Shown piece after piece: positions 20,448 through 47,656 of a DNA stretch of 64,000 nucleotides. This DNA is from Patescibacteria group bacterium. GTDB lineage: Bacteria; Patescibacteriota; Minisyncoccia; Portnoybacterales; GWB1-42-6. The translations under genes were made by a program, and so were the position numbers. The first letter of the stretch is position 1, and the number at the start of each line of letters is the position of its first letter. The DNA lies in NCBI GenBank assembly GCA_022709865.1, contig JAKLIA010000002.1:14521-78520 (forward strand), given 5' to 3'. The notes under the pieces were generated by a model, which was given only the letters and a program-made list of their open reading frames with translations, was not told the DNA's origin and made no database searches.

Positions 20448-20452
20448 CTATC

Positions 20453-21598: not shown

Positions 21599-21611
21599 AA
21601 CTCCAAGGGGC

Positions 21612-21641
21612 TTGACAAGAATAGATAAAATAGTATATAAT
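21612..21641 (+). promoter_or_regulatory. Sigma70-like promoter upstream of the secreted-protein and lipoprotein genes
   Basis: TTGACA at 21612-21617, 17-18 nt spacer, TATAAT-like ATATAAT at 21635-21641. Confidence 0.45.
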
Positions 21642-21725
21642 ACAAGATTACAGAAAAGGGTAGTAAATAAGAGAAAAAAAGGCAGTTCTTTAAACAAAAA
21701 AATAAAGAGATAAGGAGGCTAGACC

Positions 21726-22100
21726 ATGAAAAAGACCGTTATTACTATTTTCGTGTTAGCGGTATTGTTGGTGGGTAGCGGTCAAGTTTTTGGTTGCTCC
21801 CTCTGTGATAGGCTTACAAAGCTCGGTTATTCTAACCAGGAAATTGTAAGCATCATTAGCGGCAGCGCTACGCGCGCTGAAGCTGAAGACAGGATGCGGC
21901 AAGTGATTCTTCGGGGCGGAAACGTTCCTGTGAAAATGGCCCGTTATTCGCCTAACCGATCTGTTTTAGTTCCGTCGCAAAAAGCGAAAATACCAGATCT
22001 TTTTCCGGAGCAAAAACAAAAATACAAATATTCGGAAGAGGAACAAGAGGTTCCTCCGATGAATGGATCGGCCATGGCCGAAACGAAAAAGAGGAGGTAA
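21726..22100 (+). CDS. Small secreted hypothetical protein (signal peptide, CxxC, Lys/Glu-rich tail)
   Basis: RBS AAGGAGG 6 nt upstream. Cleavable N-terminal signal MKKTVITIFVLAVLLVGSGQVFG. Confidence 0.5.
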   Translation: MKKTVITIFVLAVLLVGSGQVFGCSLCDRLTKLGYSNQEIVSIISGSATRAEAEDRMRQVILRGGNVPVKMARYSPNRSVLVPSQKAKIPDLFPEQKQKYKYSEEEQEVPPMNGSAMAETKKRR

Positions 22101-22104
22101 GAAA

Positions 22105-22830
22105 ATGAAGAAGGAATATTTGTTGTTGAATGTTATTTTCTTGTGCCTCTTGTTTTTCCAAGGCTGCACAGGATTAATAGTCTCGCGCGCGGATGCGCCC
22201 GAGGAAATCATAATGCGGGAAGCTAAAACGGTAAAAGCCACGGAGCCTTATGAGGTGGACCAAAAACTTCTGCCGGCCAGAATGGATTTAATTTCTTCGA
22301 TTCCCCAAGGGGAATATAAGAAATTAAAGCTTGGCGGCAATCCCGTTGGCCCGGTATCCAAAAATACTGTGAAAAAACTTCAGGACGAAGCCCGAGAGTC
22401 AAAATCAGTCATTTTTATCAATAGAGAAAAAATGATAATTGAGACTCAAGGCGGCAACGGCAAATGGTATCGTGGTTGGGTAGAGCCTGAAACTGTTTTT
22501 CTAGCTAAGGCTAATTATGATGCTTCCACCGGCATTACCGAATATGAATTATATAAGCTCGGTATTTGCTGGAACCCGGTGCGAAATGTAAAAGTTCGCC
22601 AATTGCCGGTAATCTTGAAGATCACAGAACGATATCGCGATACGACAAAACAAATTATCGAACAGCGGTATCGAGACACCGACTATACGCCTGCTCTTTG
22701 GGCAGGGCTTGGAGGGCTTGCAGTTGGCGGCGTGCTTGGTTGGATATTGCATCCGGCGGCCACGACAACGGTTATTACTAAGACCCTCGGTTGTATCGGC
22801 GGTCCTGCACCCCTTCCCTTAGTTCCTTAA
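22105..22830 (+). CDS. Putative lipoprotein, hypothetical
   Basis: RBS GAGGAGG 7 nt upstream of the ATG at 22105. Signal with lipobox-like LFFQGC. Gly-rich hydrophobic C-terminus. Confidence 0.55.
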   Translation: MKKEYLLLNVIFLCLLFFQGCTGLIVSRADAPEEIIMREAKTVKATEPYEVDQKLLPARMDLISSIPQGEYKKLKLGGNPVGPVSKNTVKKLQDEARESKSVIFINREKMIIETQGGNGKWYRGWVEPETVFLAKANYDASTGITEYELYKLGICWNPVRNVKVRQLPVILKITERYRDTTKQIIEQRYRDTDYTPALWAGLGGLAVGGVLGWILHPAATTTVITKTLGCIGGPAPLPLVP

Positions 22831-23000
22831 CTCTTTATTTATCCAGGCGAGGCGCAAAGACAAAAAATCTTTAGCGCTTCGCCCTTCTACTTTTTTTCAT
22901 AAAAAATTGCGGAAAAAAGTAGGAGAAAAAAATAATTCACCCTGTTAAATAATTGCTTCGCAATTCCTGCGCAGCAGAAATTAACAGGATAAATAAAAAT

Positions 23001-25493
23001 ATGAAAAAGATAATTTCCATTTTAACCGTATTTTTAACTATAAGCGCTATCGTAGCGCCGATTTTGGCGAACGCCGATGGCTCACCGCAATTTAATATTC
23101 AGAGCGGTGATCTAAAAACATTAGCCGTGGCCAACAGAACCACCGCTACCGGCTGGCAGGATAACAGCGTATCCGCTAGCAGCAATAATAGCGTGGCTTT
23201 TAGGGTTTATTATCACAATGGAGTGATAGATTCAGTGGCCCATAACACTCGGGTCCGCTTAACGTTTTCCAATAACGCCCAAAGCACCATTACGGTAAAC
23301 GCGGCTTTAAGCGCCGACAACGCGCCGACAAAAAATGACAGCGTGATTATCTATAGTTCTCCGGCGCAAACATTAGCCATGGAAACTAGCTCGATTCGCT
23401 GGTACCCGAACCAATCAACAACTCCGACCTATGTTTCGGCGACTTCTTATGGTTCAAATTATATTGAGTTAAATATTGGAGATATTCAAGGCTGCTGGCC
23501 ATATCAGGGTTATATTACTTTTATTGGTAATTTATCTCCTGTTGCTACTCCCACCCCGACTCCAACTCCGACCCCTACACCTACTCCTACCCCAACACCT
23601 ACCCCAAACTTAAATTACAACCTAACTGTCAGCAAGACCGTTCGGAACCAATCAAGCGGAACTAGCTATGGGTATAGCACCAGCGCTGTTTTAAATGATA
23701 CTTTAAACTTTCAAATTAGCGTTGTTAACACCGGAAACACCTCGTTAAGCAATGTTGTGGTGAGGGATAATATTCCTTATCCTTTAACTTACGTTAACGG
23801 CTCAACCAATGAAAATGGCTCTTATTTGGCGGATGGCATAACCGGCAACGGAATAAATATCGGCTCGTTAGCGCAAGGCGCCACCAGGACGATCACTTTT
23901 AGCGCTTTAGTAAATTATTATTATTCCTCTCAGACTGCCACTAACTATGGGTATGCCCGCGCGGACAATGTGAGCGAGAAGAGTTCCTCAGCTTATATTT
24001 ACTTATCTTCGGCAACTCCGACCCCGACTCCAACACCTGGTTATAGTTATTTAACTATCAATAAAACCGTCCGCAATTTAACTAGCGGCACAAGCGGCTA
24101 TATGGAAAGCGTAAATGCTAATGGTAATGACCGCATATCTTTCCAGGTTCAGATCCAAAATACCGGCAATACCACGCTGAATAATGTTTATGTCTATGAT
24201 ACTTTGCCTAGCTACCTTTCTTATGTTTCGGGCTCAGCTCGATTAGATGGTTCATATATGTCTGATGGAATAGTTTCCGGCGGAGTGAATATCGGTTCGC
24301 TGTCTTCAGGCTCTACCAGAACCATAGTTTTTGAAGTTACGGCTAACTATTATTCGTATGCTTCAAACCAAAACTTGATTAACTACGCTTATGCCCGCGC
24401 GGACCAAGTAAGCGAGCGCAGCGATACAGCCACAGTGTATTTGGGCCAAAGTTATAGCCAAGGAAATCTTAATATTTCCAAGACCGTCCGCAATACAACC
24501 ACCGGCACAAGCATGCAAAGCTCTGTTAATGCCAGCATCGGCGACCGAGTGATGTTTTTAATTCAAGTCTCAACGCCTTCAAGCTTAGGTAATCTTTATA
24601 ACGTGCGCGTTTGGGATACTTTGCCTTCCGGTTTAACTTATGTTCCGGGCTCAACCCGCATTGATAATGCTTATACCAGCGACGGCTTAACAACCGGCGG
24701 AATAAGCTTAGGCACGATGTCTGCCAACCAAAATCGCAGCATTAACTTTGAGGCGACAGTCAATTCTTATGGCGGCGCCCAAACCATTACTAACTATGCT
24801 TATGCTTCGGCGGATAATGTTGGCCAGCAGTCATCTTTTGCGCAAGTGGTAACGACCACAGGCTCGGCTTCAACTGTTTATGTTCCGGCAGCGACAATTT
24901 CTACTTCCGGATTGACTAAACGGGTAGATAATTTAACTTCCGCCAATGGAACGCAAACCGATAACACGGCTTCTGTGGGCCATGCCTTAAAATATACTTT
25001 GAGCTACTATAACAGCGGCTCTAGCATATTAACCAATGTCCGGTTCGTTGATACTTTGCCTTCATATACGACTTTTGTCAGCGCTGATAATGGCGGCAGC
25101 TATAACGCCAGCACTAATCAAATAACTTGGTATATGGGCAGCTTGTCTTCAGGTGCTACCGCTACTGTTTCTTATCAGGTTAATGTGATGCAGGTGCCGT
25201 ATAACGGCTATGTTATTGCCAATAGCGCGGCTTTTGCAGCTGATAATTTAAGCGCTATCAATTCCAACGAGGTTCGCACGACTGTGTCGACCGGCGTGGT
25301 CTTAGGCGCATCAATTGCGGCTGTCACCGGCAGCAACGACTTGGCGCGCAATATAGCTATTTCTCTGATGGTTTCTTTATGGGGCATATTCTTGGTATAT
25401 CTCTACAATGAATACGGCCTAGCGATCAATTGGAACAAACTAAAGTTTAAGTTCGCGGTTTGGCGGATTAGGGTTAAAGAAAAGTTGATGTAA
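23001..25493 (+). CDS. Cell-surface protein with four DUF11 (conserved repeat domain) modules joined by Pro-Thr linkers. C-terminal TM segment plus basic tail.
   Basis: Signal peptide (MKKIISILTVFLTISAIVAPILANA). Repeated TVRN..SGTS...V.NTGNT.L.NV.V.DTLP..L.YV.GS....G.Y..DG...GG...G domain (x4), which is the DUF11 pattern. (PT)n linkers at 23546-23606 and 24012-24037. C-terminal ...AAVTGSN...TM...KLKFKFAVWRIRVKEK. Confidence 0.8.
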   Translation: MKKIISILTVFLTISAIVAPILANADGSPQFNIQSGDLKTLAVANRTTATGWQDNSVSASSNNSVAFRVYYHNGVIDSVAHNTRVRLTFSNNAQSTITVNAALSADNAPTKNDSVIIYSSPAQTLAMETSSIRWYPNQSTTPTYVSATSYGSNYIELNIGDIQGCWPYQGYITFIGNLSPVATPTPTPTPTPTPTPTPTPTPNLNYNLTVSKTVRNQSSGTSYGYSTSAVLNDTLNFQISVVNTGNTSLSNVVVRDNIPYPLTYVNGSTNENGSYLADGITGNGINIGSLAQGATRTITFSALVNYYYSSQTATNYGYARADNVSEKSSSAYIYLSSATPTPTPTPGYSYLTINKTVRNLTSGTSGYMESVNANGNDRISFQVQIQNTGNTTLNNVYVYDTLPSYLSYVSGSARLDGSYMSDGIVSGGVNIGSLSSGSTRTIVFEVTANYYSYASNQNLINYAYARADQVSERSDTATVYLGQSYSQGNLNISKTVRNTTTGTSMQSSVNASIGDRVMFLIQVSTPSSLGNLYNVRVWDTLPSGLTYVPGSTRIDNAYTSDGLTTGGISLGTMSANQNRSINFEATVNSYGGAQTITNYAYASADNVGQQSSFAQVVTTTGSASTVYVPAATISTSGLTKRVDNLTSANGTQTDNTASVGHALKYTLSYYNSGSSILTNVRFVDTLPSYTTFVSADNGGSYNASTNQITWYMGSLSSGATATVSYQVNVMQVPYNGYVIANSAAFAADNLSAINSNEVRTTVSTGVVLGASIAAVTGSNDLARNIAISLMVSLWGIFLVYLYNEYGLAINWNKLKFKFAVWRIRVKEKLM

Positions 25494-25502
25494 TTTTAGC
25501 TT

Positions 25503-25555
25503 GGGGCTTAATTCTTTTTGCAGAGCAAAAAGAATTAAGCCCCGTTTCTTTGTTT
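25503..25555 (+). terminator. Strong Rho-independent terminator after the DUF11 gene
   Basis: 17-bp perfect stem GGGGCTTAATTCTTTTT / AAAAAGAATTAAGCCCC, loop GCAGAGC, then a T-rich tract. Confidence 0.7.
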
Positions 25556-25670
25556 ATTTTTGTCATTCTGAGCAAAGCGAAGAATCTATAGATATCCTTC
25601 ATTTTGCTTAAAACAACAGAGAAGTTCTTAAACAAATTTAAAATATATAACAAAAAAATGGAGGCGCATT

Positions 25671-25853
25671 ATGACAGACTCTTTTTTAAGAGAATTTGCT
25701 GGTTTAATTATTGTCTTTATATTTAATTCTTTACTCTGTGGAATAACAGCCTGGAAATACCATAAAGATAGGATTATTTTGATTCCTGCCGTAGCAATGC
25801 TAGTTATCACAAGCTTGATAGTGGGATTTAATTTTGGTAAATTGTTAAAATAA
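25671..25853 (+). CDS. Small (60-aa) two-helix membrane protein, hypothetical
   Basis: GGAGG 6 nt upstream of the ATG. Two hydrophobic helices. An intrinsic terminator lies directly downstream (25879-25916). Confidence 0.3.
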   Translation: MTDSFLREFAGLIIVFIFNSLLCGITAWKYHKDRIILIPAVAMLVITSLIVGFNFGKLLK

Positions 25854-25878
25854 ATAGCAAAAGTTTGCCGGAAACCGA

Positions 25879-25916
25879 CCCATTAAGGATTTTATCCTTA
25901 ATGGGCTTTTATTTTG
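25879..25916 (+). terminator. Rho-independent terminator upstream of the hydrogenase genes
   Basis: 10-bp perfect stem CCCATTAAGG / CCTTAATGGG, 7-nt loop, then TTTTATTTTG. Confidence 0.55.
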
Positions 25917-25973
25917 CCCACAAAAAATTATCCACACTTTTTTATTTGAACTATTTTTGGTATAATTTTAATA

Positions 25974-27005
25974 ATGACTCAAGGAGGGTTGGAAAAATTC
26001 GTGGCTTATCTGCGCCAGAACGGCTGGCCGATTTTTGGGCCGGTTTTCTCAGCTGAAAAAACCGAAGAGGTTTCGCCGTTCTTAGCTGCTCACCAGCCAA
26101 AATCAGCGCATAAAGACGGACAGATCTATATTAAAGAAATCCAAAAAGCTGAAGACCTGGACTTATCCGGGCAATTGCCGTTCTATTCTTTTAAGCGTTT
26201 TTTTGTGCCGGAGCAAGAATGCCTTTTCCAATACGAAAAAGAGAAACTAGACCAGCCGGAAAAAGAACAAAAGGCAGCTTTGCTTGGCATGAGCATTTTA
26301 GACCTGAAAGCGGTTAACCTTTATGATCAAGTCTTTGAAAAGGACCCATATTATCAGCTCCGCCGGCGTAATTTGCTGATAATCGGCTATTCCTTAACTC
26401 CCGAGATACAAGGCAATCTTTTTGAAATAGAATATGAGGAAAATATTTTAGAGCATTTGCCTTTTGATATTTTTTTAGTAAAAACAGATAAAGCCTTTAA
26501 GGTTTTTACCGGCTCGATAAAAGGGCAAAGAGTGCTGGAGGATTTTGGCTATAAAGATTACCAGCATATCCAATACAGCGGGCCGGTCAAAGAAGGAAAG
26601 TTAGAAGAACGGATGGAGCGCTTGCGCGACCGGCTAAAAAACCATCCCAATCCCCAAATCTGGGAGGAGCTGGGCAAGATTTGTATTGAATGCGGCAAAT
26701 GCACCTTGGCTTGCCCGACTTGTTTTTGCTTCCGTATAGACGATAAGCCGGCTTTAAAAGAGGGCGCGGGCAAAAGGACTCGGGAATGGGATTCTTGTTT
26801 TTACCAAGAGTTTTCCGAAGTGGCTGGTGGGCACAAGTTTTTAAAGACCACAGCCGCCAGGATACTTTTTTGGTATTACCATAAGTTTGCCCGAATCCCT
26901 GACGAGTTTGATTTTATGGGTTGCGTGGGGTGCAAGCGATGCGCTAAAGTTTGCCCTGTGGGCATAAATATAGAAGAAGTTTTAAAGAAAATAGAGAACT
27001 CTTAA
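25974..27005 (+). CDS. Group 3b [NiFe]-hydrogenase (sulfhydrogenase-type) beta subunit, 4Fe-4S protein (HydB/AsrA-like)
   Basis: Two ferredoxin-type cluster motifs, CIECGKCTLACPTCFC and CVGCKRCAKVCPVG. Directly upstream of, and stop/start-coupled to, the gamma subunit. Confidence 0.7.
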   Translation: MTQGGLEKFVAYLRQNGWPIFGPVFSAEKTEEVSPFLAAHQPKSAHKDGQIYIKEIQKAEDLDLSGQLPFYSFKRFFVPEQECLFQYEKEKLDQPEKEQKAALLGMSILDLKAVNLYDQVFEKDPYYQLRRRNLLIIGYSLTPEIQGNLFEIEYEENILEHLPFDIFLVKTDKAFKVFTGSIKGQRVLEDFGYKDYQHIQYSGPVKEGKLEERMERLRDRLKNHPNPQIWEELGKICIECGKCTLACPTCFCFRIDDKPALKEGAGKRTREWDSCFYQEFSEVAGGHKFLKTTAARILFWYYHKFARIPDEFDFMGCVGCKRCAKVCPVGINIEEVLKKIENS

Positions 27006-27830
27006 TTGCTGCTGATGAATAATCCCTACGAATCACAATCAGCCAGAATATCTTTTATTTCCAGGCAGACAGACAATATTAAATTGTTCCGTTTTGAATT
27101 GGGCAAAAAAATTAAATACCAACCTGGGCAATTCGTGGAGTTGTCTTTGCCGGGTTTTGGCGAAGCGCCCTTTGCGCCTTGCGGCGATGCCAAAGAAAAC
27201 TATATTGAGCTTTGCGTTAGAAACGCAGGCAAATTAACCGCCAAGCTCCATGAAATGAAGGTTGGGGACAAAGTTGGCCTTCGCGGGCCTTTTGGCAATG
27301 GGGTTTGGCCGTTGAATAAATATGATTTTAAAAAGCAGAAAAATCTTTTTATTGCGGTTGGCGGGCTGGGCTTTGTTCCTTTGCGGACTTTGATCCTTGG
27401 TAAAGACGACTTATTGGGCAGTGGCACAAAAGTGCAGATATTTTATGGCGCCAAATCTCCGGATGATATGCTTTTCCGACACGAATACGACCGGTGGAAA
27501 AAGCAAAACATCCAATTGGAGCTCACGGTGGATAAAGAATGCGTTGGTTGGAAAGGGTGCACAGGGCTGGTTACGACGCTTTTTGACAAACATGAAGTTG
27601 TCCAAAACTCAGTCGCTTTTATTTGTGGGCCGCCTGTAATGTACCGGCCGATATTGGAAAAGCTTCAAAAATTGGGCTTTGCGGATGAGGATATTTATTT
27701 GTCGCTGGAGAGGAGAATGCACTGCGGCATAGGAGTTTGCCAACATTGCGCCGTTGGCCCATACTATACTTGCAAAGATGGCCCGGTTTTCAGCTGGGCG
27801 CAGCTAAAAACCATTCCTGAAGCAATTTAA
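27006..27830 (+). CDS. Group 3b hydrogenase gamma subunit: FAD/NAD(P)-binding oxidoreductase with C-terminal 2Fe-2S (HydG/AsrB-like)
   Basis: Ferredoxin-NADP reductase-like fold (RFELGKKIKYQPGQFVEL, GGLGFVPL). C-terminal CGIGVCQHCAV cluster motif. Confidence 0.75.
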   Translation: MLLMNNPYESQSARISFISRQTDNIKLFRFELGKKIKYQPGQFVELSLPGFGEAPFAPCGDAKENYIELCVRNAGKLTAKLHEMKVGDKVGLRGPFGNGVWPLNKYDFKKQKNLFIAVGGLGFVPLRTLILGKDDLLGSGTKVQIFYGAKSPDDMLFRHEYDRWKKQNIQLELTVDKECVGWKGCTGLVTTLFDKHEVVQNSVAFICGPPVMYRPILEKLQKLGFADEDIYLSLERRMHCGIGVCQHCAVGPYYTCKDGPVFSWAQLKTIPEAI

Positions 27831-27993
27831 ATTAGATAAGCTAATAATTAATAATTAAGATAATTTTTAAGGTTTTATGCGAAAATTCAAGTTAATGGTA
27901 GGAGACGATATAATGGACCTTCTTCCGTCTATCCTGACCGCATTTATCATAATTGCCGGATTTGTCACTTTAATAATAAAAAACTTATAGACC

Positions 27994-28188
27994 ATGTGCC
28001 TCACTATCCCCAAAAAAGTTATTTCAGCTGGAAAGGAGGCTATTGTTGTCAAAGCTGGGGAGAAAAAAGAAATAGTAGCCAGCCTCTTGCCGGTCAAAAA
28101 AGGGGATTGGGTCTTAACGCAGAGCCAAGTCATAATCAAAAAAATAACCGCTAAGCAGGCTAAAGAAATAAATAATCTCATTATTTAA
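27994..28188 (+). CDS. hypC: Hydrogenase maturation factor HypC/HupF family
   Basis: 64 aa beginning MCLTIP (the essential N-terminal Cys2 motif of HypC) and GDWVL near the C-terminus. Confidence 0.75.
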   Translation: MCLTIPKKVISAGKEAIVVKAGEKKEIVASLLPVKKGDWVLTQSQVIIKKITAKQAKEINNLII

Positions 28189-28198
28189 AAACTATCAT

Positions 28199-29104
28199 AT
28201 GCCAAATAAAGGATTTATTTTAGTTTTTTCGACCGCCATAATTTCCGGTTTTTCGGTTTTTATCAATAAGTTCGGCGTGGCGATAAATAATTCCGATATT
28301 TTTGCTTTTGCCAAGATCGCCTTGGTGGCGCTTTTTATCGGAGCGATTATTTTATTTTTTAATAAAAAACAGGAGTTTTTAGAGCTTTCCAAAAAACAGT
28401 GGCTTCATTTGTTTTTGCTTGGTTTAATTGGCGGCTCAATTCCTTTTTTGCTATTTTTCAGGGGGTTGTCGTTAACCGGAGCAGCTCAAGGCGCCTTTAT
28501 CCATAAAACTTTATTTATTTTTGTGGCGGCCGGAGCTGTTATTTTTCTTAAAGAAAAAGTTAATAAGGGCTTTTTTATCGGCGGATTAAGCTTATTGGCT
28601 GGTTTGATGTTAACTTTAAAAAGCTTTAATCTGTCATTTGGCTGGGGAGACTTGCTGATTTTGGCGGCAGTTTTGTTCTGGTCGGCGGAAAACATTTTAG
28701 CCAAACACATCCTAAAAAATCTTTCGGGGAATATGGTGGCTTTTGGCCGAATGTTCTTTGGTGCTATTTTAATTTTTGTTTATCTTGTTCTATCGGGCCA
28801 AAGCGCGCAATTGTTAAGTTTAAGCTGGCCGCAATTTGGCTGGATAGCAATAACCGCCGCCCTGCTTTTAGGCTACACGCTTACCTGGTATAACGGATTA
28901 AAACTCATGCCGGTTTCTGTGGCTACCACGATTTTACTAGCCGGTTTGCCGATAACCACCTTGCTTTCCGCTATAAACGTCGGCCAAGTCTCTGCCAAAA
29001 ATATTTATTCTGGAGCGCTGATTCTAAGCGGTTTAATTTTAATTATGGGCTTTGACCGAATATGGGAAAGAATAAAAATGGTAAAAAAATATGTCCGGTC
29101 CTAA
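28199..29104 (+). CDS. DMT-superfamily (EamA-like) transporter
   Basis: 10-TM pattern with two EamA-like halves. Embedded between hydrogenase genes. Confidence 0.7.
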   Translation: MPNKGFILVFSTAIISGFSVFINKFGVAINNSDIFAFAKIALVALFIGAIILFFNKKQEFLELSKKQWLHLFLLGLIGGSIPFLLFFRGLSLTGAAQGAFIHKTLFIFVAAGAVIFLKEKVNKGFFIGGLSLLAGLMLTLKSFNLSFGWGDLLILAAVLFWSAENILAKHILKNLSGNMVAFGRMFFGAILIFVYLVLSGQSAQLLSLSWPQFGWIAITAALLLGYTLTWYNGLKLMPVSVATTILLAGLPITTLLSAINVGQVSAKNIYSGALILSGLILIMGFDRIWERIKMVKKYVRS

Positions 29105-29807
29105 AATAGCTGCGCTTTACGGGCTAATCCCCAATAAGCTTGGCTTTTGCGGGCCAAAGCAGGAGTTGCTTAAAAAGTTTCTTGTTGGCAAGCTGTCTAT
29201 CCCGGAAATAATCCCGACCCTGGAAAAGTTTGAAGCTGCTTATGCTTATTATCAGTTAATAGCGAAAAAGAATAAAATAAGCAGCCCATTTAATAAAAAA
29301 GTTGTCGAAGCTTATTGGTTAGGGAATGATCTTCTGGATAAGTTCACTGCCAATGATCTGCGGCGGTTTGTTGAAGAAAGGTTTTGCCGGCCAGGGCTTC
29401 TATCCAAGAGTGAAGCTAAAAAACGCGCCCAATTGATTCCGGAAGGGGTAAAACCCCACCATAGCTTCCATGTTTTGGTTTTAGGCTCAATTACCGGCAG
29501 CGTTGATTTTACAGGTAATACTAAGCTAAAGGATATTTGCCGCATTGGCTGGGGAAAGGTAAAGCGAATAATAAAAAACAAGATTGTTATCAGCTACGTG
29601 CCTCTGGCGGGCAAAAAAAATATAAGCTTTGCCCCCCCAACGAACAAAACCATAAATTGGAACAAAGAGATTTTACCGTCGATTGATATTGGGGATTGGG
29701 TTTCTGTCCATTGGAATCACGCTATCCAAAAATTGAATGAAGAAAATATTATTAATTTGTTTAAATATACCCAGGACACATTAAACGCTTTAAATGCCAA
29801 AGAATAA
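29091..29807 (+). CDS. Hypothetical protein with a C-terminal HypC-like motif (GDWVSVHWNHAI)
   Basis: 238 aa. The C-terminal IDIGDWVSVHWNHAIQKL resembles the conserved GDYVLVHVGFAI core of HypC/HupF, but the protein lacks the N-terminal MCxxP. Overlaps the upstream stop and the downstream start, so it is translationally coupled into the hydrogenase operon. Confidence 0.45.
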   Translation: MSGPKIAALYGLIPNKLGFCGPKQELLKKFLVGKLSIPEIIPTLEKFEAAYAYYQLIAKKNKISSPFNKKVVEAYWLGNDLLDKFTANDLRRFVEERFCRPGLLSKSEAKKRAQLIPEGVKPHHSFHVLVLGSITGSVDFTGNTKLKDICRIGWGKVKRIIKNKIVISYVPLAGKKNISFAPPTNKTINWNKEILPSIDIGDWVSVHWNHAIQKLNEENIINLFKYTQDTLNALNAKE

Positions 29808-30564
29808 GAAACCAACCATCGCTATTGTTTCTTTGACCTGCTGCGAAGGCTGCCAGGTGGCAATTTTGGATTTGGGAACCAGGTTTTTAAAATTAGCTGA
29901 ACATATTAAGATCGGGGATTTTGCTTTATTGGAAGACGAGCCGGAAGCGCCAAATTACGACATTGTTTTTGTTGAGGGTTCGCCGATCACCAAAGAAAAT
30001 ATTGAGCGGTTGAAAGATCTGCGCGCCCGCTCTAAGGTTTTAGTGGCTTTGGGCGCCTGCGCGGCGCTGGGCGGCATTGCGGAAATTAAAAATTACCAGG
30101 ATAAGAACGAACGGATGCATTATGTATATAAAAACGTTGAGAGCATTAATAACCCCGATATCAAGCCTTTAAGTTATTATGTAAAAGTTGATTGGGAAGT
30201 TCCCGGTTGCCCTATAAATAAAGAAGAGTTTTTAAAAATCGTTAAACAGCTTCTGGCCGGCGTTCCGCCAACTATTGCCAGGCGCCCGGTGTGTTATGAA
30301 TGCCAGATAAGGCAGAATAAATGCTTATTGCAAGAAGGTTTGCCTTGCCTTGGTCCTTTAATGCTGGCTGGTTGCGGCGCTCCTTGCCCTTCAAGCGGTT
30401 ATCCCTGCGATGGTTGCCGAGGGCCGATTCCGGGCCTAGATCCCGAAAAATTAACGAAACAGCTTTTGTCGCAAAAATACAGCCAGGAAGAAGTGAATCT
30501 GATTTTAGAAAGATTTGGCTTGCAAGATAAGGTCTATCCGGAAGCGCCAACAAAACAATTATAA
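29794..30564 (+). CDS. Group 3b [NiFe]-hydrogenase small (delta) subunit
   Basis: N-terminal proximal-cluster motif IVSLTCCEGCQV and GSPIT. C-terminal Cys-rich region (CPINK...CYEC...C...CLGP...CGAPC...C..C). Confidence 0.75.
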   Translation: MPKNKKPTIAIVSLTCCEGCQVAILDLGTRFLKLAEHIKIGDFALLEDEPEAPNYDIVFVEGSPITKENIERLKDLRARSKVLVALGACAALGGIAEIKNYQDKNERMHYVYKNVESINNPDIKPLSYYVKVDWEVPGCPINKEEFLKIVKQLLAGVPPTIARRPVCYECQIRQNKCLLQEGLPCLGPLMLAGCGAPCPSSGYPCDGCRGPIPGLDPEKLTKQLLSQKYSQEEVNLILERFGLQDKVYPEAPTKQL

Positions 30565-30576
30565 TTTTGTCTTTTT

Positions 30577-31872
30577 ATGCATATTAAAATAGACCACATC
30601 GCTAAAATTGAGGGCCATGCCGGTTTTACGGCTGATATTATCGGTGGAAACGTCAGCAAAGCCCGGATAGACGTTATGGAAGGAGCCCGGCTTCTGGAGG
30701 GCATTTTGCGCGACCGCAGCATTTTTGAGGTTTCGCAAATAACCTCGCGCATTTGCGGGGTCTGCCCGGTAGTGCATAATTTAACCAGCCTTAAAGCATT
30801 GGAGCGGGCATTAAAAATAGAGATTTCGCCGGAAACGGTTTTATTGCGCAAACTAATGATGATGGGGCAAATCCTGAATAGCCACGCTTTGCATCTTTTC
30901 TTTTTTTCTTTATCTGATTTTTTCGGTTTTACTAACGACTTGGCCTTAATAGAAAAATATCCTAATCGCGCCCAGGACGCTTTAGCGCTGCGAGAGTTTG
31001 GCAATAAAATAATTGAGGTTATTGGCGGCCGCTCGATCCACCCATTAACTCCGACCATCGGCGGATTTTTAAAATTGCCCAACAAAGCCAAGCTAGCCGA
31101 ACTTTTCAATGAAAGCGACAAGGCTTTGGCCTCGGCAAAAAACCTAGTTAAACTTTTTCTCAGCCTGGACTACGAAAACTTTAGCCGCTCCGCGCCTTAT
31201 GCCAGCTTAACCCATATAAAAGATTATGCTTTCTATGATGGCTTGATCAAGGCAACGACAAAAGACAAAATTAATCCGGCGGATTTTATGGAAACCATAA
31301 AAGAGCATCAGCTGCAAAACAGCGTGGTCAAGCAATCTTATTATCAGGGCAAGCCCTTTATGGTTGGGGCTATATCGCGCCTGAACAATAACCATAGCCA
31401 ACTAAACCCTGAAGCTAAAAAAGCTTTAAAATCAGTTAAAATAACTCTACCGACTTTCAATCCTTTCCATAATATTTTAGGCCAGGCAATCGAGCTTATC
31501 CACTGCACGGAAGAAGCGCAAAAATTATTGCGCCAGACGCTGCAAAAAGATCTTCAGGAAGAAACAAGAGCCAAGCGCGACGAATTGATACAGGAAAAAC
31601 TAAAAGCCATAAAGAACACCGCCATGGGAATTGATGCCATCGAAGCTCCGCGGGGCACACTTTACTATTTTTATGAAATAAACGGCCAAGGAAAGATTAT
31701 AAATTGCAATATTATCACGCCAACCTCGCAGAACTTGGCTCGCCTGGAAAGGGACCTAGAAGAATATCTGCCGCAGCTAGTCGCCAAAAAAACAATAAAA
31801 AAGGAAATAGAAGAAAAAATTAAAGCGCTGATCAGGGCCTACGATCCCTGCATTACCTGCGCTACGCATTAA
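30577..31872 (+). CDS. [NiFe]-hydrogenase large (alpha) subunit, group 3b-like
   Basis: L1 motif RICGVCPVVH near the N-terminus and L2 motif DPCITCATH at the extreme C-terminus. The stop codon follows the His directly. Confidence 0.9.
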   Translation: MHIKIDHIAKIEGHAGFTADIIGGNVSKARIDVMEGARLLEGILRDRSIFEVSQITSRICGVCPVVHNLTSLKALERALKIEISPETVLLRKLMMMGQILNSHALHLFFFSLSDFFGFTNDLALIEKYPNRAQDALALREFGNKIIEVIGGRSIHPLTPTIGGFLKLPNKAKLAELFNESDKALASAKNLVKLFLSLDYENFSRSAPYASLTHIKDYAFYDGLIKATTKDKINPADFMETIKEHQLQNSVVKQSYYQGKPFMVGAISRLNNNHSQLNPEAKKALKSVKITLPTFNPFHNILGQAIELIHCTEEAQKLLRQTLQKDLQEETRAKRDELIQEKLKAIKNTAMGIDAIEAPRGTLYYFYEINGQGKIINCNIITPTSQNLARLERDLEEYLPQLVAKKTIKKEIEEKIKALIRAYDPCITCATH

Positions 31873-31875
31873 AAT

Positions 31876-32115
31876 ATGCACGATTTTCATTTAGCAGACC
31901 AAATAGTCAAGCTAGCCAAAGAATACGCTGCCAAGAATAATCTAGCCAAAATAACCAAGATCGTGTTAGAATTGGGCGACATTATAGAACACGGAGAAGG
32001 CATCAAGCCGGCCAATTTGGAATACAATATTAAATTATTAATGCCAATAGAAAAAGTGGAAATAAAAAAAATAGAAGGGGATAGCTGGAAATTGGTGAGC
32101 CTAGATGGCGAATAA
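31876..32115 (+). CDS. HypA-like N-terminal domain protein lacking the Zn-finger (79 aa, no cysteines)
   Basis: Begins MHDFHLADQIVKLAKEYAAKNNLAKI, resembling the Ni-binding MHE-start N-domain of HypA/HybF. No CxxC...CxxC is present. Confidence 0.45.
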   Translation: MHDFHLADQIVKLAKEYAAKNNLAKITKIVLELGDIIEHGEGIKPANLEYNIKLLMPIEKVEIKKIEGDSWKLVSLDGE

Positions 32116-32182
32116 AAAAAACACATTAACATCCAAACATTTTAACAAAAATGTTTTTTATATTTGTGTGTTAAAAAATAAA

Positions 32183-33103
32183 ATGCTATACGATCTAATC
32201 ATTATTGGTGCCGGTCCCGCTGGGCTTTCAGCCGCGATCTACGCCGTGCGCAAAAAAATAAAGACCTTGGTCCTAACCGATTCTTTTGGCGGCCAAATAG
32301 TAGATGCTCCTATGGTTGAAAATTATCTTGGTTTGCCGGAAATCTCCGGGCTCGACTTGATAGAAAAGTTCCGCGCTCACGCCAAGAAGTTTGCTCTGGA
32401 GATAAAGGAGAATTGCGAAATACAGAAGATCTCTCCAATGAGCAACGATCTTTTTGAAATAGAAACGGACCTGGGTTCTTTTTCGGCTAAAGCCATAATT
32501 GTTACCAGCGGCAAGAAATACCGGGAGCTCGATGTGCCGGGCGCTAAAGAGTTTGACGGCAAAGGGATCAGCTATTGCGCCACTTGCGATGCCCCGCTTT
32601 TTAAAAATAAGAACGTGGCGGTTATTGGCGCCGGAGATGCGGGGCAGGATGCGGTTTGGCAACTAACCCAATATGCCGCCAAGATCTATTTATTAAATAA
32701 ATATCCCGATCTGCGCGGCGCCAATATCCAAATGCAAGAGAAATTAAAGAGCAATGAAAAAGTTGAGATATACAACAACTACGAGCCGATCGAGGTAAAA
32801 GGCGATAAATTCGTTAAGGCTTTGGTCTTTAAGCATAATGGGCATGGCGAGATCAAAGAGATCGCAGTTAACGGGATTTTTGTGGAAATAGGCTCTGTGC
32901 CAGCTTCAAAGTTTTTAGCCGATATTGTAAAATTAAATGAAAAGGGAGAAGTTGTTATTGACCAAAAAACCAATGAAACTTCCCGGCCCGGCATCTTTGC
33001 GGCTGGCGATATCACCGATATTGCCCATAAGCAAATGATCATTGCGGCTGGCGAAGGCGCCAAAGCGGCCTTAACAGCCTGGGAATATTTAAAAAATAAA
33101 TAA
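32183..33103 (+). CDS. trxB: Thioredoxin-disulfide reductase
   Basis: FAD motif IIIGAGPAGLSAAIY, redox-active CATCD, NAD(P) motif VIGAGDAG, C-terminal GDITD. Start set at the internal ATG 32183 (MLYDLIIIGAG). Confidence 0.85.
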   Translation: MLYDLIIIGAGPAGLSAAIYAVRKKIKTLVLTDSFGGQIVDAPMVENYLGLPEISGLDLIEKFRAHAKKFALEIKENCEIQKISPMSNDLFEIETDLGSFSAKAIIVTSGKKYRELDVPGAKEFDGKGISYCATCDAPLFKNKNVAVIGAGDAGQDAVWQLTQYAAKIYLLNKYPDLRGANIQMQEKLKSNEKVEIYNNYEPIEVKGDKFVKALVFKHNGHGEIKEIAVNGIFVEIGSVPASKFLADIVKLNEKGEVVIDQKTNETSRPGIFAAGDITDIAHKQMIIAAGEGAKAALTAWEYLKNK

Positions 33104-33118
33104 TTAATATAAAACAAA

Positions 33119-33352
33119 ATGATAAAAGTATACAGCACCCCAACCTGCACTTATTGTGTGACCTTAAAAAAGTTCTTGACCGAAAAGGGGATAAAGTTCG
33201 AGGCAGTCGATGTTTCGCAAAACGAAGCCGACTTGCAAGAAATGGTTGATAAATCGGGCCAAATGGGCGTGCCGGTTATTGATATCGACGGACAAGTAAT
33301 AGTCGGCTTTAATCGAAACAAAATAGTAGAGCTATTAAATATAAAAGATTAA
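33119..33352 (+). CDS. Glutaredoxin-like / NrdH-like small thioredoxin-fold protein
   Basis: 77 aa, active site TPTCTYC, C-terminal GVPVIDIDGQVIVGFN. Confidence 0.7.
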   Translation: MIKVYSTPTCTYCVTLKKFLTEKGIKFEAVDVSQNEADLQEMVDKSGQMGVPVIDIDGQVIVGFNRNKIVELLNIKD

Positions 33353-40124: not shown

Positions 40125-40128
40125 ACAT

Positions 40129-45399: not shown

Positions 45400-46902
<1,503 letters not shown>

Positions 46903-47638: not shown

Positions 47639-47656
47639 CTTTTCTTTTATCAATTT

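What the first reader, a model, noticed from the sequence alone, without database searches (positions are those of the whole stretch)
25974..32115. Group 3b [NiFe]-hydrogenase operon split by hypC, a DMT transporter and a HypC-like gene, and trailed by a cysteine-less HypA-like gene plus thioredoxin reductase and glutaredoxin
The four structural genes occur as beta-gamma and delta-alpha pairs separated by about 2 kb. The inserted block contains hypC (MCLTIP start), an EamA-type transporter and a 238-aa ORF whose C-terminus mimics HypC. The same co-directional block continues into a 79-aa HypA-like N-domain with no Zn-finger cysteines, then trxB and a glutaredoxin-like gene. Cytoplasmic bidirectional hydrogenases are reported in some CPR lineages. 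This arrangement is non-canonical: maturation factors are embedded, there is no HypB/D/E/F or protease, and a thiol-redox pair sits adjacent. It may reflect a minimalist maturation pathway, or coupling of H2 to thioredoxin or polysulfide reduction.
Basis: partly seen in the sequence, partly recalled or inferred. Interest (0 to 1): 0.55.

Follow-up and report, generated by a model that had tools for sequence, protein, structure and literature searches.

The report
CPR hydrogenase operon with embedded maturation cassette
This is a complete operon for a cytoplasmic NAD(P)-linked nickel-iron hydrogenase of an ultra-small Portnoybacteria bacterium; the enzyme type and its split gene order are already published, but the three genes that split it form a widespread, unstudied helper cassette that probably helps build the enzyme's metal centre.

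Summary
All ten ORFs exist as described, co-directional and tightly packed, at 25974-33352. The four structural genes best match Pyrococcus and Thermococcus group 3b subunits.

The order beta-gamma | hypC-eamA-DUF6390 | delta-alpha is not an oddity. It recurs in at least 10 CPR species-level genomes, and Jaffe 2020 noted the split for CPR clade hyd1.

New here:
- The "HypC-like" gene is DUF6390, a new helical N-domain fused to a HypC fold. Cys20, His124, Cys150 and His207 are invariant in 79 sequences.
- hypC-eamA-DUF6390 is a conserved cassette. It ends group 3b operons and large, apparently group 1h-type hydrogenase operons in CPR, DPANN, Chloroflexota, Actinomycetota and Bacillota.
- No protease gene is needed, because the large subunit stops at the His of DPCxxCxxH.
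- The 79-aa gene belongs to a real family of zinc-finger-less HypA proteins.

No HypD or HypF, and only a truncated HypE fragment, lies near DUF6390 in about 160 loci. Genome-wide absence could not be tested, and related Chloroflexi carry canonical hypCDEF clusters. I propose that DUF6390 is a HypC-type metal chaperone coupled to a membrane permease; this is inferred, not shown. Novelty is moderate: a new variant of a known kind.

The parts
25502..25905 (+). Two terminator-like hairpins (25502-25544, 20-bp stem; 25879-25905, 12-bp stem) that close the upstream genes and mark the probable 5' boundary of the operon. A weak promoter-like site lies at 25946-25975.
25974..27005 (+). Hydrogenase beta subunit (HyhB/ShyB-like Fe-S electron-transfer subunit, AsrA-like), 343 aa.
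   Evidence: Pfam Fer4_22, 108 bits. NCBIfam ShyB 140 bits against AsrA 124 bits, both far below their equivalog cut-offs. Best PDB hit is P. furiosus sulfhydrogenase I beta, 9nez_B, E=2e-24.
27006..27830 (+). Hydrogenase gamma subunit (FAD/NAD(P)-binding diaphorase with a 2Fe-2S domain), 274 aa.
   Evidence: Pfam FAD_binding_6, NAD_binding_1 and DHODB_Fe-S_bind. NCBIfam PRK08345 'hydrogenase subunit gamma' 217 bits. Best PDB hit is P. furiosus sulfhydrogenase I gamma, 9nez_C, E=2e-49.
27994..28188 (+). Stand-alone HypC chaperone, 64 aa. It starts MCLTIP. The His equivalent to E. coli HypC His51 is replaced by Gln.
   Evidence: Pfam HupF_HypC 50.4 bits, above the cut-off of 28.5. Alignment with E. 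coli HypC.
28199..29104 (+). EamA-type DMT permease, 301 aa, with two EamA repeats. It overlaps the next gene by 14 nt. Substrate unknown.
   Evidence: Pfam EamA 96.7 bits, two stretches. An EamA gene sits directly upstream of DUF6390 on the same strand in 47 of 48 loci that have one. No His, Cys or Met is conserved.
29091..29807 (+). DUF6390 protein, 238 aa. Residues 1-150 form a helical N-domain with no PDB analogue. Residues about 150-238 form a HypC fold. Cys20, His124, Cys150 and His207 are strictly invariant. The gene overlaps delta by 14 nt.
29794..30564 (+). Hydrogenase delta (small) subunit, 256 aa.
   Evidence: Pfam Oxidored_q6, 85 bits. NCBIfam ShyD 154 bits and HydD 154 bits, against VhuG 109 and FrhG 64.
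30577..31872 (+). Hydrogenase alpha (large, catalytic) subunit, 431 aa. Carries RICGVCPVVH and the C-terminal DPCITCATH. The protein ends at that His, so there is no extension for a protease to cut.
   Evidence: Sequence. PDB hits: Tk HyhL 5yxy 244 bits and Pf SHI alpha 235 bits, against 169 (7t2r), Mvh 159, Hox 140 and Frh 137. NCBIfam ShyA 282 bits, against VhuA 155 and FrhA 130. C-terminal comparison across loci.
31876..32115 (+). Mini-HypA, 79 aa. It is the HypA nickel-binding domain (MHD start, invariant His2 and His39) without the Zn-finger insert and without any Cys.
   Evidence: Pfam HypA 25.0 bits, below the cut-off of 28.9. A family profile hits T. kodakarensis HypA 3a43 residues 1-64 at E=3e-7. 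56 clusters found among 1.84 billion representatives, nearly all 79-87 aa.
32105..33103 (+). Low-Mr thioredoxin-reductase-like flavoprotein with a CATC redox motif. The ORF is 332 aa; the true start is probably Met27 at 32183. The NADPH-specific HRRxxxR motif is replaced by NKYPDLR.
   Evidence: Pfam Pyr_redox_2; NCBIfam AhpF 306 bits and TRX_reduct 295 bits, below the cut-off of 343. Motifs in close homologues. The homologue in L172 is called at 307 aa.
33119..33352 (+). Glutaredoxin-like protein of the YruB family, 77 aa, with a CTYC motif. Probable substrate of the adjacent reductase.
   Evidence: TIGR02196 97.9 bits, above the cut-off of 88.55. The TrxB-Grx pair recurs after the cluster in L003, L004, L009, L012, L041 and L172.

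Best explanation
**What it is.** The region 25974-33352 is one operon of a Candidatus Portnoybacteria (CPR) bacterium. It encodes a cytoplasmic, NAD(P)-linked group 3b [NiFe]-hydrogenase, with alpha and delta as the hydrogenase module and beta and gamma as the diaphorase module. Its own streamlined maturation set travels with it.

**Why it looks split.** A three-gene accessory cassette, hypC-eamA-DUF6390, sits directly upstream of delta-alpha, so beta and gamma appear separated. The conserved core in this CPR clade is hypC-eamA-DUF6390-delta-alpha-miniHypA. The electron-transfer module upstream can be swapped.

**Maturation, as inferred.**
1. The large subunit is made without a C-terminal extension, so no endopeptidase step is needed.
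2. Nickel is delivered by a HypA reduced to its MH(D/E) nickel-binding domain.
3. The iron-site step uses the stand-alone HypC plus DUF6390.

**Proposed role of DUF6390.** Its C-terminal domain is a HypC fold that keeps the two residues HypC needs for binding its iron cofactor (Cys150 = Cys2, His207 = His51). Its new helical N-domain adds an invariant Cys20 and His124. I propose these four form a Cys2His2 metal site that carries iron, or the Fe(CN)2CO unit, to the apo-large subunit. The His-less stand-alone HypC would then act mainly as a holding chaperone.

**Proposed role of the permease.** The translationally coupled EamA permease would supply or remove a small molecule or metal needed for this step. 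Its substrate is unknown.

**Physiology, as inferred.** The enzyme re-oxidises glycolytic NAD(P)H as H2, or works in reverse. The co-transcribed TrxR-like and glutaredoxin-like pair draws on the same nicotinamide pool for thiol reduction.

**Shown versus inferred.** Gene identities, folds, invariant residues, conservation of gene order, and the link between the missing extension and the missing protease are shown. The metal site, the cargo, the role of EamA and the physiological direction are inferred.
For: **Group 3b identity.** Best PDB and NCBIfam matches for all four subunits are Pf SHI/SHII and Tk Hyh. The L1 and L2 cysteine motifs are intact.

**Organism.** An identical DUF6390 protein is named Candidatus Portnoybacteria. 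Contigs of 121-287 kb carry the same locus.

**Conserved order.** beta-gamma-hypC-eamA-DUF6390-delta-alpha-miniHypA recurs in L003, L013, L015, L016, L023, L070, L078, L082, L161-L163 and L172. L173 has a NuoE/F/G-like diaphorase in the beta/gamma position.

**The cassette is general.**
- Of 40 DUF6390 loci with at least 8 kb on both sides, 31 have a NiFe large subunit, 30 have EamA and 24 have HypC.
- EamA is immediately upstream in 47 of 48 loci that have one.
- The cassette also closes hydrogenase operons in Ktedonobacteraceae that I read as group 1h-type from their gene content: a small subunit with NiFe_hyd_SSU_C, a 624-aa large subunit, a NifU-Rieske protein and HycI.

**DUF6390 structure and residues.**
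- C20, H124, C150 and H207 are invariant in 79 sequences at 30-100% identity.
- C150 and H207 align with HypC Cys2 and His51.
- Only 6 of 40 neighbouring stand-alone HypCs keep that His, while all 40 keep Cys2.

**Operon position.** The order is (hypA)-(hypB)-hypC-eamA-DUF6390, so DUF6390 occupies the slot after hypC. HypA or HypB co-occur with it in about 25 loci. HypD and HypF never do, across about 160 loci and 1.8 Mb.

**Extension and protease.** 0 of 15 extension-less large subunits have a protease gene nearby, against 27 of 30 with an extension. Fisher p = 2e-9, not corrected for phylogeny.

**Mini-HypA.** Profile match to TkHypA at E=3e-7. It is a consistent family of about 80 aa. It was found only next to extension-less large subunits.

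**Glycolysis neighbours.** GAPDH, PGK, enolase and PGM flank the cluster in 7-8 CPR loci.
Against: - No biochemical data exist for DUF6390; no paper mentions it.
- I could not inspect model coordinates, so the spatial clustering of the four invariant residues is not verified.
- Cys150 is internal, whereas HypC's functional Cys is N-terminal.
- A Cys2His2 set would fit nickel or zinc as well as iron.
- Nine Acidimicrobiia loci carry DUF6390 next to FtsH, with no hydrogenase, HypC or EamA within 10 kb.
- The conserved residues of EamA include generic family positions and give no clue to its substrate.
- Nearly every gene in this window is on the + strand. Co-direction alone is therefore weak evidence that trxB and grx belong to the operon.
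Confidence: 0.6

Rival explanations
1. EamA plus DUF6390 is a nickel-acquisition module. The permease imports Ni2+ or a nickel chelate. DUF6390 takes it up on its Cys/His site and docks on the apo-large subunit through its HypC-like domain. This would stand in for HypB or SlyD, which CPR loci lack.
For: - Translational coupling of the permease and DUF6390.
- Invariant Cys2His2 plus the HHSFH motif.
- No HypB in the window or in CPR loci.
- Hydrogenase operons often carry their own nickel transporter (established knowledge).
Against: - EamA has no conserved His, Cys or Met of the kind seen in nickel permeases.
- DUF6390 co-occurs in the same operon with HypA in about 25 loci and with HypB in 6. 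A replacement would predict the opposite pattern.
- A Nik-like SBP_bac_5 ABC system sits next to DUF6390 in 6 loci.
- The residues shared with HypC are those implicated in iron-cofactor binding, not nickel binding.
Confidence: 0.2
2. In CPR and DPANN, the cassette is a non-orthologous replacement of HypD, and possibly of HypE and HypF. DUF6390 would combine the HypC and HypD ligand sets in one protein. The permease would import a ligand precursor or a preformed cofactor. The result would be a truly minimal maturation pathway.
For: - No HypD or HypF lies within 10 kb of DUF6390 in about 160 loci, nor in the 64-kb window.
- DUF6390 occupies the operon slot after hypC, where hypD normally sits.
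- In one Ktedonobacteraceae lineage, a truncated HypE fragment (AIRS_C domain only) follows DUF6390.
- The stored part of the gene table of a curated Parcubacteria genome with two 3b hydrogenases names a maturation protease but no HypA, C, D, E or F. This is weak evidence because the file is cut.
Against: - The N-domain shows no homology to HypD (hhalign probability 0.4%).
- It lacks HypD's Fe-S cysteines, with only two invariant Cys.
- Chloroflexi closely related to DUF6390 carriers have canonical hypF-hypC-hypD-hypE clusters.
- Genome-wide absence in CPR was not testable here.
- No known route to CN ligands works without HypE and HypF.
Confidence: 0.12
3. The thioredoxin-reductase-like and glutaredoxin-like genes are functionally wired to the hydrogenase. 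This would be H2-driven thiol or peroxide reduction, or the TrxR-like protein acting as an alternative electron partner. They would not be mere neighbours.
For: - TrxR-like genes lie within 10 kb of DUF6390 and the hydrogenase in 11 of about 35 CPR/DPANN loci. The rough binomial p is 6e-10 against a 2.5% expectation.
- The pair directly follows DUF6390 in L009, L012 and L041.
- Jaffe 2020 noted a PF07992 family near the hyd2 clade.
- No terminator lies between mini-HypA and trxB.
Against: - Several of the neighbouring TrxR-like proteins lack the CATC motif, so they are a different kind of flavoprotein.
- The window already has a full beta/gamma diaphorase.
- The counts are not phylogenetically independent.
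- No electron-transfer interface is known.
Confidence: 0.3
4. The beta and gamma genes are an AsrAB-type sulfite reductase pair unrelated to the hydrogenase. On this view the inserted genes simply separate two independent units.
For: The beta and gamma proteins also score against AsrA (124 bits) and AsrB (192 bits).
Against: - Those scores are far below the AsrA and AsrB cut-offs of 323 and 289, and no AsrC is present.
- The best PDB hits are sulfhydrogenase I beta and gamma.
- Beta and gamma co-occur with delta and alpha in 27-28 loci across phyla.
Confidence: 0.02

Closest known systems
Pyrococcus furiosus sulfhydrogenase I/II and Thermococcus kodakarensis Hyh (group 3b [NiFe]-hydrogenases)
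   Same: Same four subunit types. All four are the best sequence matches in the PDB or NCBIfam. The active-site motifs are the same.
   Different: - The archaeal genes are contiguous.
- The Tk large-subunit chain extends 4 residues past the final His. From memory, these archaeal enzymes are processed by a protease and matured by full-length HypA plus HypB-F.
- Here the large subunit ends at the His, the accessory cassette sits inside the operon, and HypA has no Zn finger.
CPR 'hyd1' clade of group 3b hydrogenases (Jaffe et al. 2020, BMC Biol, PMC7304191)
   Same: Same lineage and the same subunit set. That paper already reports that beta and gamma are sometimes not directly upstream of the small subunit, and that a hypC-like family lies nearby.
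   Different: The main text of that paper does not describe the EamA-DUF6390 pair, the extension-less large subunit or the mini-HypA.
HypC-family chaperones and their paralogues (HypC, HybG, HupF, HoxL)
   Different: - The Cys is internal (residue 150), not N-terminal.
- A 150-residue helical domain with no PDB analogue precedes it.
- Its Pfam HypC score is below the cut-off.
- It is tied to a membrane permease.
HypA nickel metallochaperone (T. kodakarensis HypA, PDB 3a43 / 5yxy)
   Same: An N-terminal MH(E/D) motif, and a nickel-domain sequence that aligns over residues 1-64.
   Different: The CxxC...CxxC zinc domain is absent. The protein is 79 aa rather than about 115-140 aa. It has an extra invariant His39.
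[NiFe] large subunits that naturally lack a C-terminal extension (sensory HoxC/HupV, CooH, Ech; cited from memory)
   Same: The protein ends at, or close to, the last metal-ligand motif, and no dedicated endopeptidase is present.
   Different: Those belong to groups 2 and 4. Here the feature appears in a group 3b clade, and it is perfectly anti-correlated with protease genes in the loci examined.
Clostridium pasteurianum Cp34/Cp9, an NADH-dependent TrxR-like protein paired with a glutaredoxin-like protein (cited from memory)
   Same: A low-Mr TrxR-like flavoprotein whose top NCBIfam match is AhpF (306 bits, just above TrxR at 295), paired with a YruB-type glutaredoxin-like protein.
   Different: No peroxiredoxin lies next to it here. 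Nucleotide preference is only guessed from the missing HRRxxxR motif.

Membership tests
Group 3b [NiFe]-hydrogenase | Large subunit with both Ni-Fe ligand motifs (RxCGxCxxxH and DPCxxCxxH) | tested here: met
   RICGVCPVVH and DPCITCATH are present.
Group 3b [NiFe]-hydrogenase | Large subunit closer to characterised 3b enzymes than to groups 3a, 3c or 3d | tested here: met
   PDB: Tk HyhL 244 bits and Pf SHI 235 bits, against 169, 159 (Mvh), 140 (Hox) and 137 (Frh). NCBIfam: ShyA 282 bits, against VhuA 155 and FrhA 130. No tree or HydDB classifier was run.
Group 3b [NiFe]-hydrogenase | Four-subunit set with an AsrA-like Fe-S beta subunit and an AsrB-like FAD/NAD(P) gamma subunit | tested here: met
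   The subunits co-occur in 27-28 loci.
Group 3b [NiFe]-hydrogenase | NAD(P)-linked H2 turnover or sulfhydrogenase activity | not testable with these tools
   Needs enzyme assays.
HypC/HybG/HupF family (the 64-aa gene) | Small OB-fold protein starting Met-Cys, scoring above the Pfam cut-off | tested here: met
   MCLTIP start; PF01455 50.4 bits against a cut-off of 28.5.
HypC/HybG/HupF family (the 64-aa gene) | Conserved His equivalent to E. coli His51 | tested here: not met
   Gln occupies that position. Only 6 of 40 cassette HypCs keep the His.
HypC family (the DUF6390 C-domain) | HypC fold | tested here: met
HypC family (the DUF6390 C-domain) | Functional Cys at the N-terminus of the polypeptide | tested here: not met
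   The aligned Cys is residue 150 of 238.
HypC family (the DUF6390 C-domain) | Sequence score above the Pfam gathering threshold | tested here: not met
   PF01455 20.3 bits against 28.5. The family profile hits PDB HypC only at E=0.02.
DUF6390 (PF19927) | Full-length match above the gathering score | tested here: met
   140.1 bits against 25, covering residues 2-237.
HypA nickel metallochaperone | N-terminal MHE-type nickel-binding motif and nickel-domain sequence | tested here: met
   MHD start; M1 and H2 are invariant in 12 homologues. The profile hits TkHypA residues 1-64 at E=3e-7.
HypA nickel metallochaperone | Zinc-binding CxxC...CxxC domain | tested here: not met
   The 79 residues contain no Cys. 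Family members are 79-87 aa.
HypA nickel metallochaperone | Score above the Pfam or NCBIfam cut-off | tested here: not met
   PF01155 25.0 bits against 28.9; TIGR00100 23.8 bits against 88.1.
HypD (tested for the DUF6390 N-domain) | Sequence homology to HypD, with its CGxHxH / GPGCPVC / GFETT motifs and Fe-S cysteines | tested here: not met
   hhalign probability 0.4%. The motifs are absent. Only two Cys are invariant.
EamA / DMT permease | Two EamA repeats | tested here: met
   PF00892 96.7 bits, two stretches.
Nickel permease (functional class considered for EamA) | Conserved metal-ligand residues (His, Asp or Cys motifs) in the membrane helices | tested here: inconclusive
   No His, Cys or Met is conserved at 80% or more in 49 sequences. 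The conserved charged residues (K39, K103, E119, E164, R184) sit at positions typical of EamA proteins in general.
Low-Mr thioredoxin reductase | CxxC redox-active disulfide in a Pyr_redox_2 fold | tested here: met
   CATC is present. Pyr_redox_2 125 bits.
Low-Mr thioredoxin reductase | Equivalog score, and the HRRxxxR motif that binds the NADPH 2'-phosphate | tested here: not met
   TIGR01292 294.8 bits against 343.45. NKYPDLR replaces HRRxxxR (the motif is cited from memory).
YruB-family glutaredoxin-like protein | Score above the cut-off, and a CxxC motif | tested here: met
   TIGR02196 97.9 bits against 88.55. CTYC is present.
Anaerobic sulfite reductase AsrABC | AsrA and AsrB at equivalog score, plus the catalytic AsrC | tested here: not met
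   123.6 bits against 323, and 191.5 bits against 289. No AsrC-like gene lies in the window.

The most novel reading that the evidence does not exclude
In CPR bacteria, and perhaps in DPANN archaea, hypC-eamA-DUF6390 together with a mini-HypA would be the entire [NiFe] maturation machinery. DUF6390 would be a single-polypeptide substitute for the HypC-HypD iron scaffold. The coupled DMT permease would bring in a ligand precursor, or a cofactor made by the host. HypD, HypE, HypF, HypB and the endopeptidase would all be dispensable. That would be a second, previously unknown route to the NiFe(CN)2CO centre.
Probability: 0.12. Interest if true: 0.9.

Novelty: new variant of a known kind. Interest (0 to 1): 0.55.

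Why it matters
Group 3b hydrogenases are the main predicted hydrogen enzymes of CPR bacteria and DPANN archaea. Whether these tiny genomes can mature them has not been examined.

This locus yields three testable points:
- **A new candidate maturation factor.** DUF6390 has thousands of members and no publication. Its gene context ties it to [NiFe]-hydrogenases in both bacteria and archaea: group 3b enzymes and large enzymes that look like group 1h. It carries a clear candidate metal site of two Cys and two His, and it has a dedicated membrane partner.
- **A natural protease-free group 3b enzyme.** The large subunit needs no C-terminal processing. That is useful for heterologous expression.
- **A minimal HypA.** It isolates the nickel-binding domain from the zinc domain.

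If the cassette does replace HypD/E/F in CPR, it would change the accepted view that six Hyp proteins are universal for [NiFe] centres. If it is only an extra chaperone, it still adds a widespread component to hydrogenase operons, including those that by gene content resemble the group 1h enzymes studied for atmospheric H2 oxidation.

Tried and rejected
2. **N-domain as a remote HypD.** hhalign gave a probability of 0.4%, so I rejected this.
3. **Nearby genes as HypF/HypE surrogates.** I considered the NodU-type carbamoyltransferase (35209-36927), the radical SAM gene (43312-44958) and the acylphosphatase-like ORF. The first two have no counterpart next to DUF6390 in other loci. My query for the acylphosphatase ORF was in the wrong reading frame, so that one remains untested.
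4. **Short 'HypE' proteins as a new mini-HypE family.** All 120 hits were 196 aa or shorter. The two long-contig examples I looked up are frameshift fragments of canonical hypF-hypC-hypD-hypE clusters in long-read Chloroflexi assemblies, and several other hits are partial gene calls. Only the AIRS_C fragment directly after DUF6390 in one Ktedonobacteraceae lineage looks genuinely truncated.
5. **Genome-wide test for HypB/D/E/F in this organism.** This was not possible. The supplementary gene table of a curated Parcubacteria genome names only a maturation protease, but the stored file is cut.
6. **Substrate prediction for EamA.** The conserved residues include generic EamA positions, so no substrate could be predicted.
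7. **Structure of mini-HypA.** I used a profile-to-PDB match instead.
8. **Literature.** No paper mentions DUF6390, EamA with HypC and NiFe, or Parcubacteria with HypD.

Full report

Yes. The ORF list reproduces every gene at the stated coordinates, all on the + strand:

| Gene | Coordinates | Length |
|---|---|---|
| beta | 25974-27005 | 343 aa |
| gamma | 27006-27830 | 274 aa |
| hypC | 27994-28188 | 64 aa, MCLTIP start |
| EamA-type transporter | 28199-29104 | 301 aa |
| 238-aa ORF | 29091-29807 | 238 aa |
| delta | 29794-30564 | 256 aa |
| alpha | 30577-31872 | 431 aa |
| cysteine-free ORF | 31876-32115 | 79 aa |
| trxB-like | 32105-33103 | 332 aa |
| glutaredoxin-like | 33119-33352 | 77 aa |

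Pfam and NCBIfam confirm each assignment. Gamma and delta are 1963 nt apart.

Genes overlap by 11-14 nt or are 3-15 nt apart. The only larger gap is 163 nt, before hypC. Two strong terminator-like hairpins lie just upstream (25502-25544 and 25879-25905), and none of comparable strength lies inside the cluster.

The identical proteins occur on metagenome contigs of 121-287 kb assigned to Candidatus Portnoybacteria, a CPR lineage.

**2. The enzyme**

All four structural proteins are closest to characterised group 3b enzymes.

- *Alpha.* It scores 244 bits to T. kodakarensis HyhL (5yxy) and 235 bits to P. furiosus sulfhydrogenase I alpha. The next best are 169 bits (7t2r), 159 (Mvh, group 3c), 140 (Hox, group 3d) and 137 (Frh, group 3a). 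NCBIfam ranks ShyA (282 bits) and HydA (263) above VhuA (155) and FrhA (130).
- *Beta and gamma.* They hit sulfhydrogenase I beta and gamma best.
- *Active site.* Both Ni-Fe ligand motifs are intact: RICGVCPVVH and DPCITCATH.

The AsrA and AsrB scores are far below their cut-offs, no AsrC is present, and beta and gamma co-occur with delta and alpha in 27-28 other loci. I ran no HydDB classifier or tree, so the group call rests on score ranking and subunit architecture.

**3. The 'split' is a conserved order, and it has been seen before**

I scanned one genome per GTDB species for relatives of the 238-aa protein. More than 592 loci were found and 80 were kept. A metagenome scan added 80 more.

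- The order beta-gamma-hypC-eamA-(238-aa gene)-delta-alpha-(79-aa gene) recurs in at least ten CPR species-level genomes and several metagenome contigs. One is a 531-kb Portnoybacteria contig with the same TrxB-Grx-LemA tail.
- Jaffe et al. 2020 (PMC7304191) defined the CPR clades 'hyd1' and 'hyd2' of group 3b. [quoted passage not shown]
- Another CPR lineage is informative. A NuoE/NuoF/NuoG-like diaphorase occupies the beta/gamma position. It is followed by hypC-eamA-DUF6390, two unrelated genes, the small subunit, a 45-aa ORF, the large subunit, the mini-HypA and GAPDH.

The stable unit is therefore the cassette plus delta-alpha plus mini-HypA. The electron-transfer module upstream is exchangeable.

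**4. The 238-aa gene is DUF6390, a HypC fold with a new N-domain**

Pfam gives PF19927 at 140 bits. No paper in the library mentions this family.

- *Invariant residues.* In 79 sequences from CPR, DPANN, Chloroflexota, Actinomycetota, Thermoplasmata and others, at 30-100% identity, only about a dozen positions are strictly invariant. They include Cys20 (in a GxCG loop of lower model confidence), His124 (in the HHSFH motif), Cys150 and His207.
- *Match to HypC.* Cys150 and His207 align with Cys2 and His51 of E. coli HypC. From the literature as I remember it, these are the residues HypC needs to bind its iron/CO2 species.
- *A complementary pattern.* All 40 stand-alone HypCs next to DUF6390 keep Cys2, but only 6 of 40 keep the His. 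The window's HypC has Gln there.

**5. hypC-eamA-DUF6390 is a general hydrogenase cassette**

- Among the 40 loci with at least 8 kb on both sides, 31 have a [NiFe] large subunit, 30 have EamA and 24 have HypC within reach.
- EamA lies directly upstream on the same strand in 47 of 48 loci that have one, usually overlapping DUF6390.
- In Ktedonobacteraceae and other Chloroflexota, the cassette closes operons with a small subunit carrying NiFe_hyd_SSU_C, a 624-aa large subunit, a NifU-Rieske protein and HycI. I read that gene content as group 1h-type.
- In Bacillota, Dehalococcoidia, Thermoplasmata, Woesearchaeota and others, it closes group 3b operons.
- The typical order is structural genes, protease, (hypA), (hypB), hypC, eamA, DUF6390.

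I used E. coli HypA-F and HycI, taken from MG1655, as tblastn queries. Across about 160 loci, 1.8 Mb in total, the results were as follows:

| Query | Result |
|---|---|
| HypD | none |
| HypF | none |
| HypE | three hits, all a 105-126-aa AIRS_C fragment immediately after DUF6390 in one Ktedonobacteraceae lineage |
| HypA | detected (4 and 12 loci in the two searches) |
| HypB | detected (2 and 4 loci) |
| HycI | detected (1 and 7 loci) |

The HypA, HypB and HycI hits show that sensitivity was adequate. DUF6390 therefore sits in the operon slot after hypC, where hypD normally lies.

There are limits to this inference.
- Closely related Chloroflexi do carry canonical hypF-hypC-hypD-hypE clusters. 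The cassette is therefore not a general replacement for HypDEF.
- Nine Acidimicrobiia loci have DUF6390 alone, next to FtsH.

**6. Why there is no protease**

I compared 45 large subunits from the genome loci.

- Fifteen, all CPR, end exactly at the His of DPCxxCxxH, as the window's alpha does. None of these 15 loci has a protease gene nearby.
- Thirty carry an extension (usually FLxxxxx). Of these, 27 have a nearby endopeptidase gene: either clear HycI (69 bits) or a divergent HycI-like family (E=0.007).
- Fisher p = 2e-9. The counts are not phylogenetically independent.

The T. kodakarensis reference chain extends 4 residues past the His.

**7. The 79-aa gene is a HypA without its zinc domain**

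- Twelve homologues share an invariant Met1-His2, Asp or Glu at position 3, and His39.
- Their profile hits T. kodakarensis HypA residues 1-64 at E=3e-7. Single-sequence Pfam and NCBIfam scores are below the cut-offs.
- An exhaustive search of 1.84 billion representatives finds 56 clusters. Nearly all are 79-87 aa and align end to end. This is a small but genuine family, not a truncated gene.
- In the loci studied, it occurs only beside extension-less large subunits: 11 of 15 against 0 of 30.

**8. The thiol-redox pair and metabolic context**

- *The reductase.* It has the CATC motif. It misses the TrxR equivalog cut-off, scores highest against AhpF, and has NKYPDLR where NADPH-specific enzymes have HRRxxxR.
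- *The partner.* It is a YruB-family glutaredoxin-like protein with CTYC, scoring above its cut-off. The pair resembles the clostridial NADH-dependent TrxR-like/Grx-like system, as I remember it.
- *Recurrence.* TrxR-like genes recur near the cassette in 11 CPR/DPANN loci. Several of those lack the CxxC motif.
- *Strand bias.* Almost every gene in the window is on the + strand. Co-direction by itself therefore means little.
- *Glycolysis.* GAPDH, PGK, enolase, phosphoglycerate mutase, TIM and aldolase genes flank the cluster in several CPR lineages. This fits a role in balancing glycolytic NAD(P)H through H2.

**9. Mechanism and rivals**

I favour DUF6390 as a HypC-type metallochaperone acting at the iron-site step, with moderate confidence. 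The reasons are:
- it keeps the HypC ligand residues;
- it adds a second Cys/His pair;
- it co-occurs with the nickel factors HypA and HypB rather than replacing them;
- it follows hypC in the operon.

*Nickel-delivery reading (about 0.2).* It is weakened by the co-occurrence with HypA and HypB, and by the lack of metal-type residues in EamA.

*Full replacement of HypD/E/F in CPR (about 0.12).* This is the most novel reading still open. It cannot be judged without whole genomes.

The substrate of the permease is unknown.

**10. Verdict**

- The enzyme type, and the separation of beta/gamma from the small subunit in CPR, are already published.
- New here are four things: the recognition of a widespread hypC-eamA-DUF6390 cassette, the anatomy of DUF6390, the extension-less large subunit that explains the missing protease, and the mini-HypA family.
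- This is a new variant of a known kind, of moderate interest. It offers a clear, testable and potentially important question about [NiFe] maturation in reduced genomes.

Noticed in passing
window 9910-9993 (+), upstream of 10054-17862: A c-di-GMP-II riboswitch (64 bits against a gathering score of 53.5). It lies directly upstream of a 2602-aa surface protein with beta-helix, NosD and Ig-like domains. This suggests c-di-GMP control of a giant adhesin-like protein in a CPR bacterium.
   Followed up: no
window 45400-47639: A 16S rRNA gene (45400-46902) is followed by a GIY-YIG endonuclease ORF (about 47163-47423), tRNA-Ile(GAT) and tRNA-Ala(TGC). No 23S rRNA follows; protein genes resume at about 47658. 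The rRNA genes therefore appear to be unlinked.
   Followed up: partly
L094 10914-11252; L170 3668-4048; L171 8513-8893: In one Ktedonobacteraceae lineage, a 105-126-aa fragment of HypE (AIRS_C domain only) directly follows DUF6390. Some copies end PRIS instead of the catalytic PRIC. It looks like a decaying or repurposed hypE in the slot after the cassette.
   Followed up: partly
L173 6114-8795 and 13631-16193: One CPR lineage pairs the same cassette, small/large subunit pair and mini-HypA with a NuoE/NuoF/NuoG-like diaphorase (as in group 3d) in place of the AsrAB-like beta and gamma. TIM and aldolase lie upstream and GAPDH downstream.
   Followed up: no
L168 3889-10552; L169 3423-10318: Canonical Chloroflexi hyp clusters have two HypC genes, each followed by a SIS-domain protein (hypF-hypC-SIS-hypC-SIS-hypD-hypE). 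In these long-read assemblies, hypD, hypE and hypF are split by frameshifts. This creates many spurious short 'HypE' entries in protein databases.
   Followed up: partly
window 35209-40290: A NodU/CmcH-type carbamoyltransferase (572 aa) is followed by three GDSL/SGNH-lipase-like proteins and a DUF5989 mini-protein. The carbamoyltransferase is distantly related to the HypF catalytic domains, but it is not conserved next to DUF6390 elsewhere.
   Followed up: partly
window 20384-25493: A sortase gene is followed by small secreted proteins and an 846-aa surface protein. The surface protein has repeated domains joined by (PT)n linkers and a C-terminal membrane anchor.
   Followed up: no
L171 4128-4601: In Ktedonobacteraceae group 3b operons, a cNMP-binding-domain protein is inserted between the beta and gamma genes.
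   Followed up: no
L010, L035, L038, L042, L050, L054, L060, L063, L080 (around position 10000): In Acidimicrobiia, DUF6390 stands alone between an FtsH-like protease gene and an L,D-transpeptidase-like gene. No EamA, HypC or hydrogenase lies within 10 kb. All four invariant Cys/His residues are still kept.
   Followed up: partly
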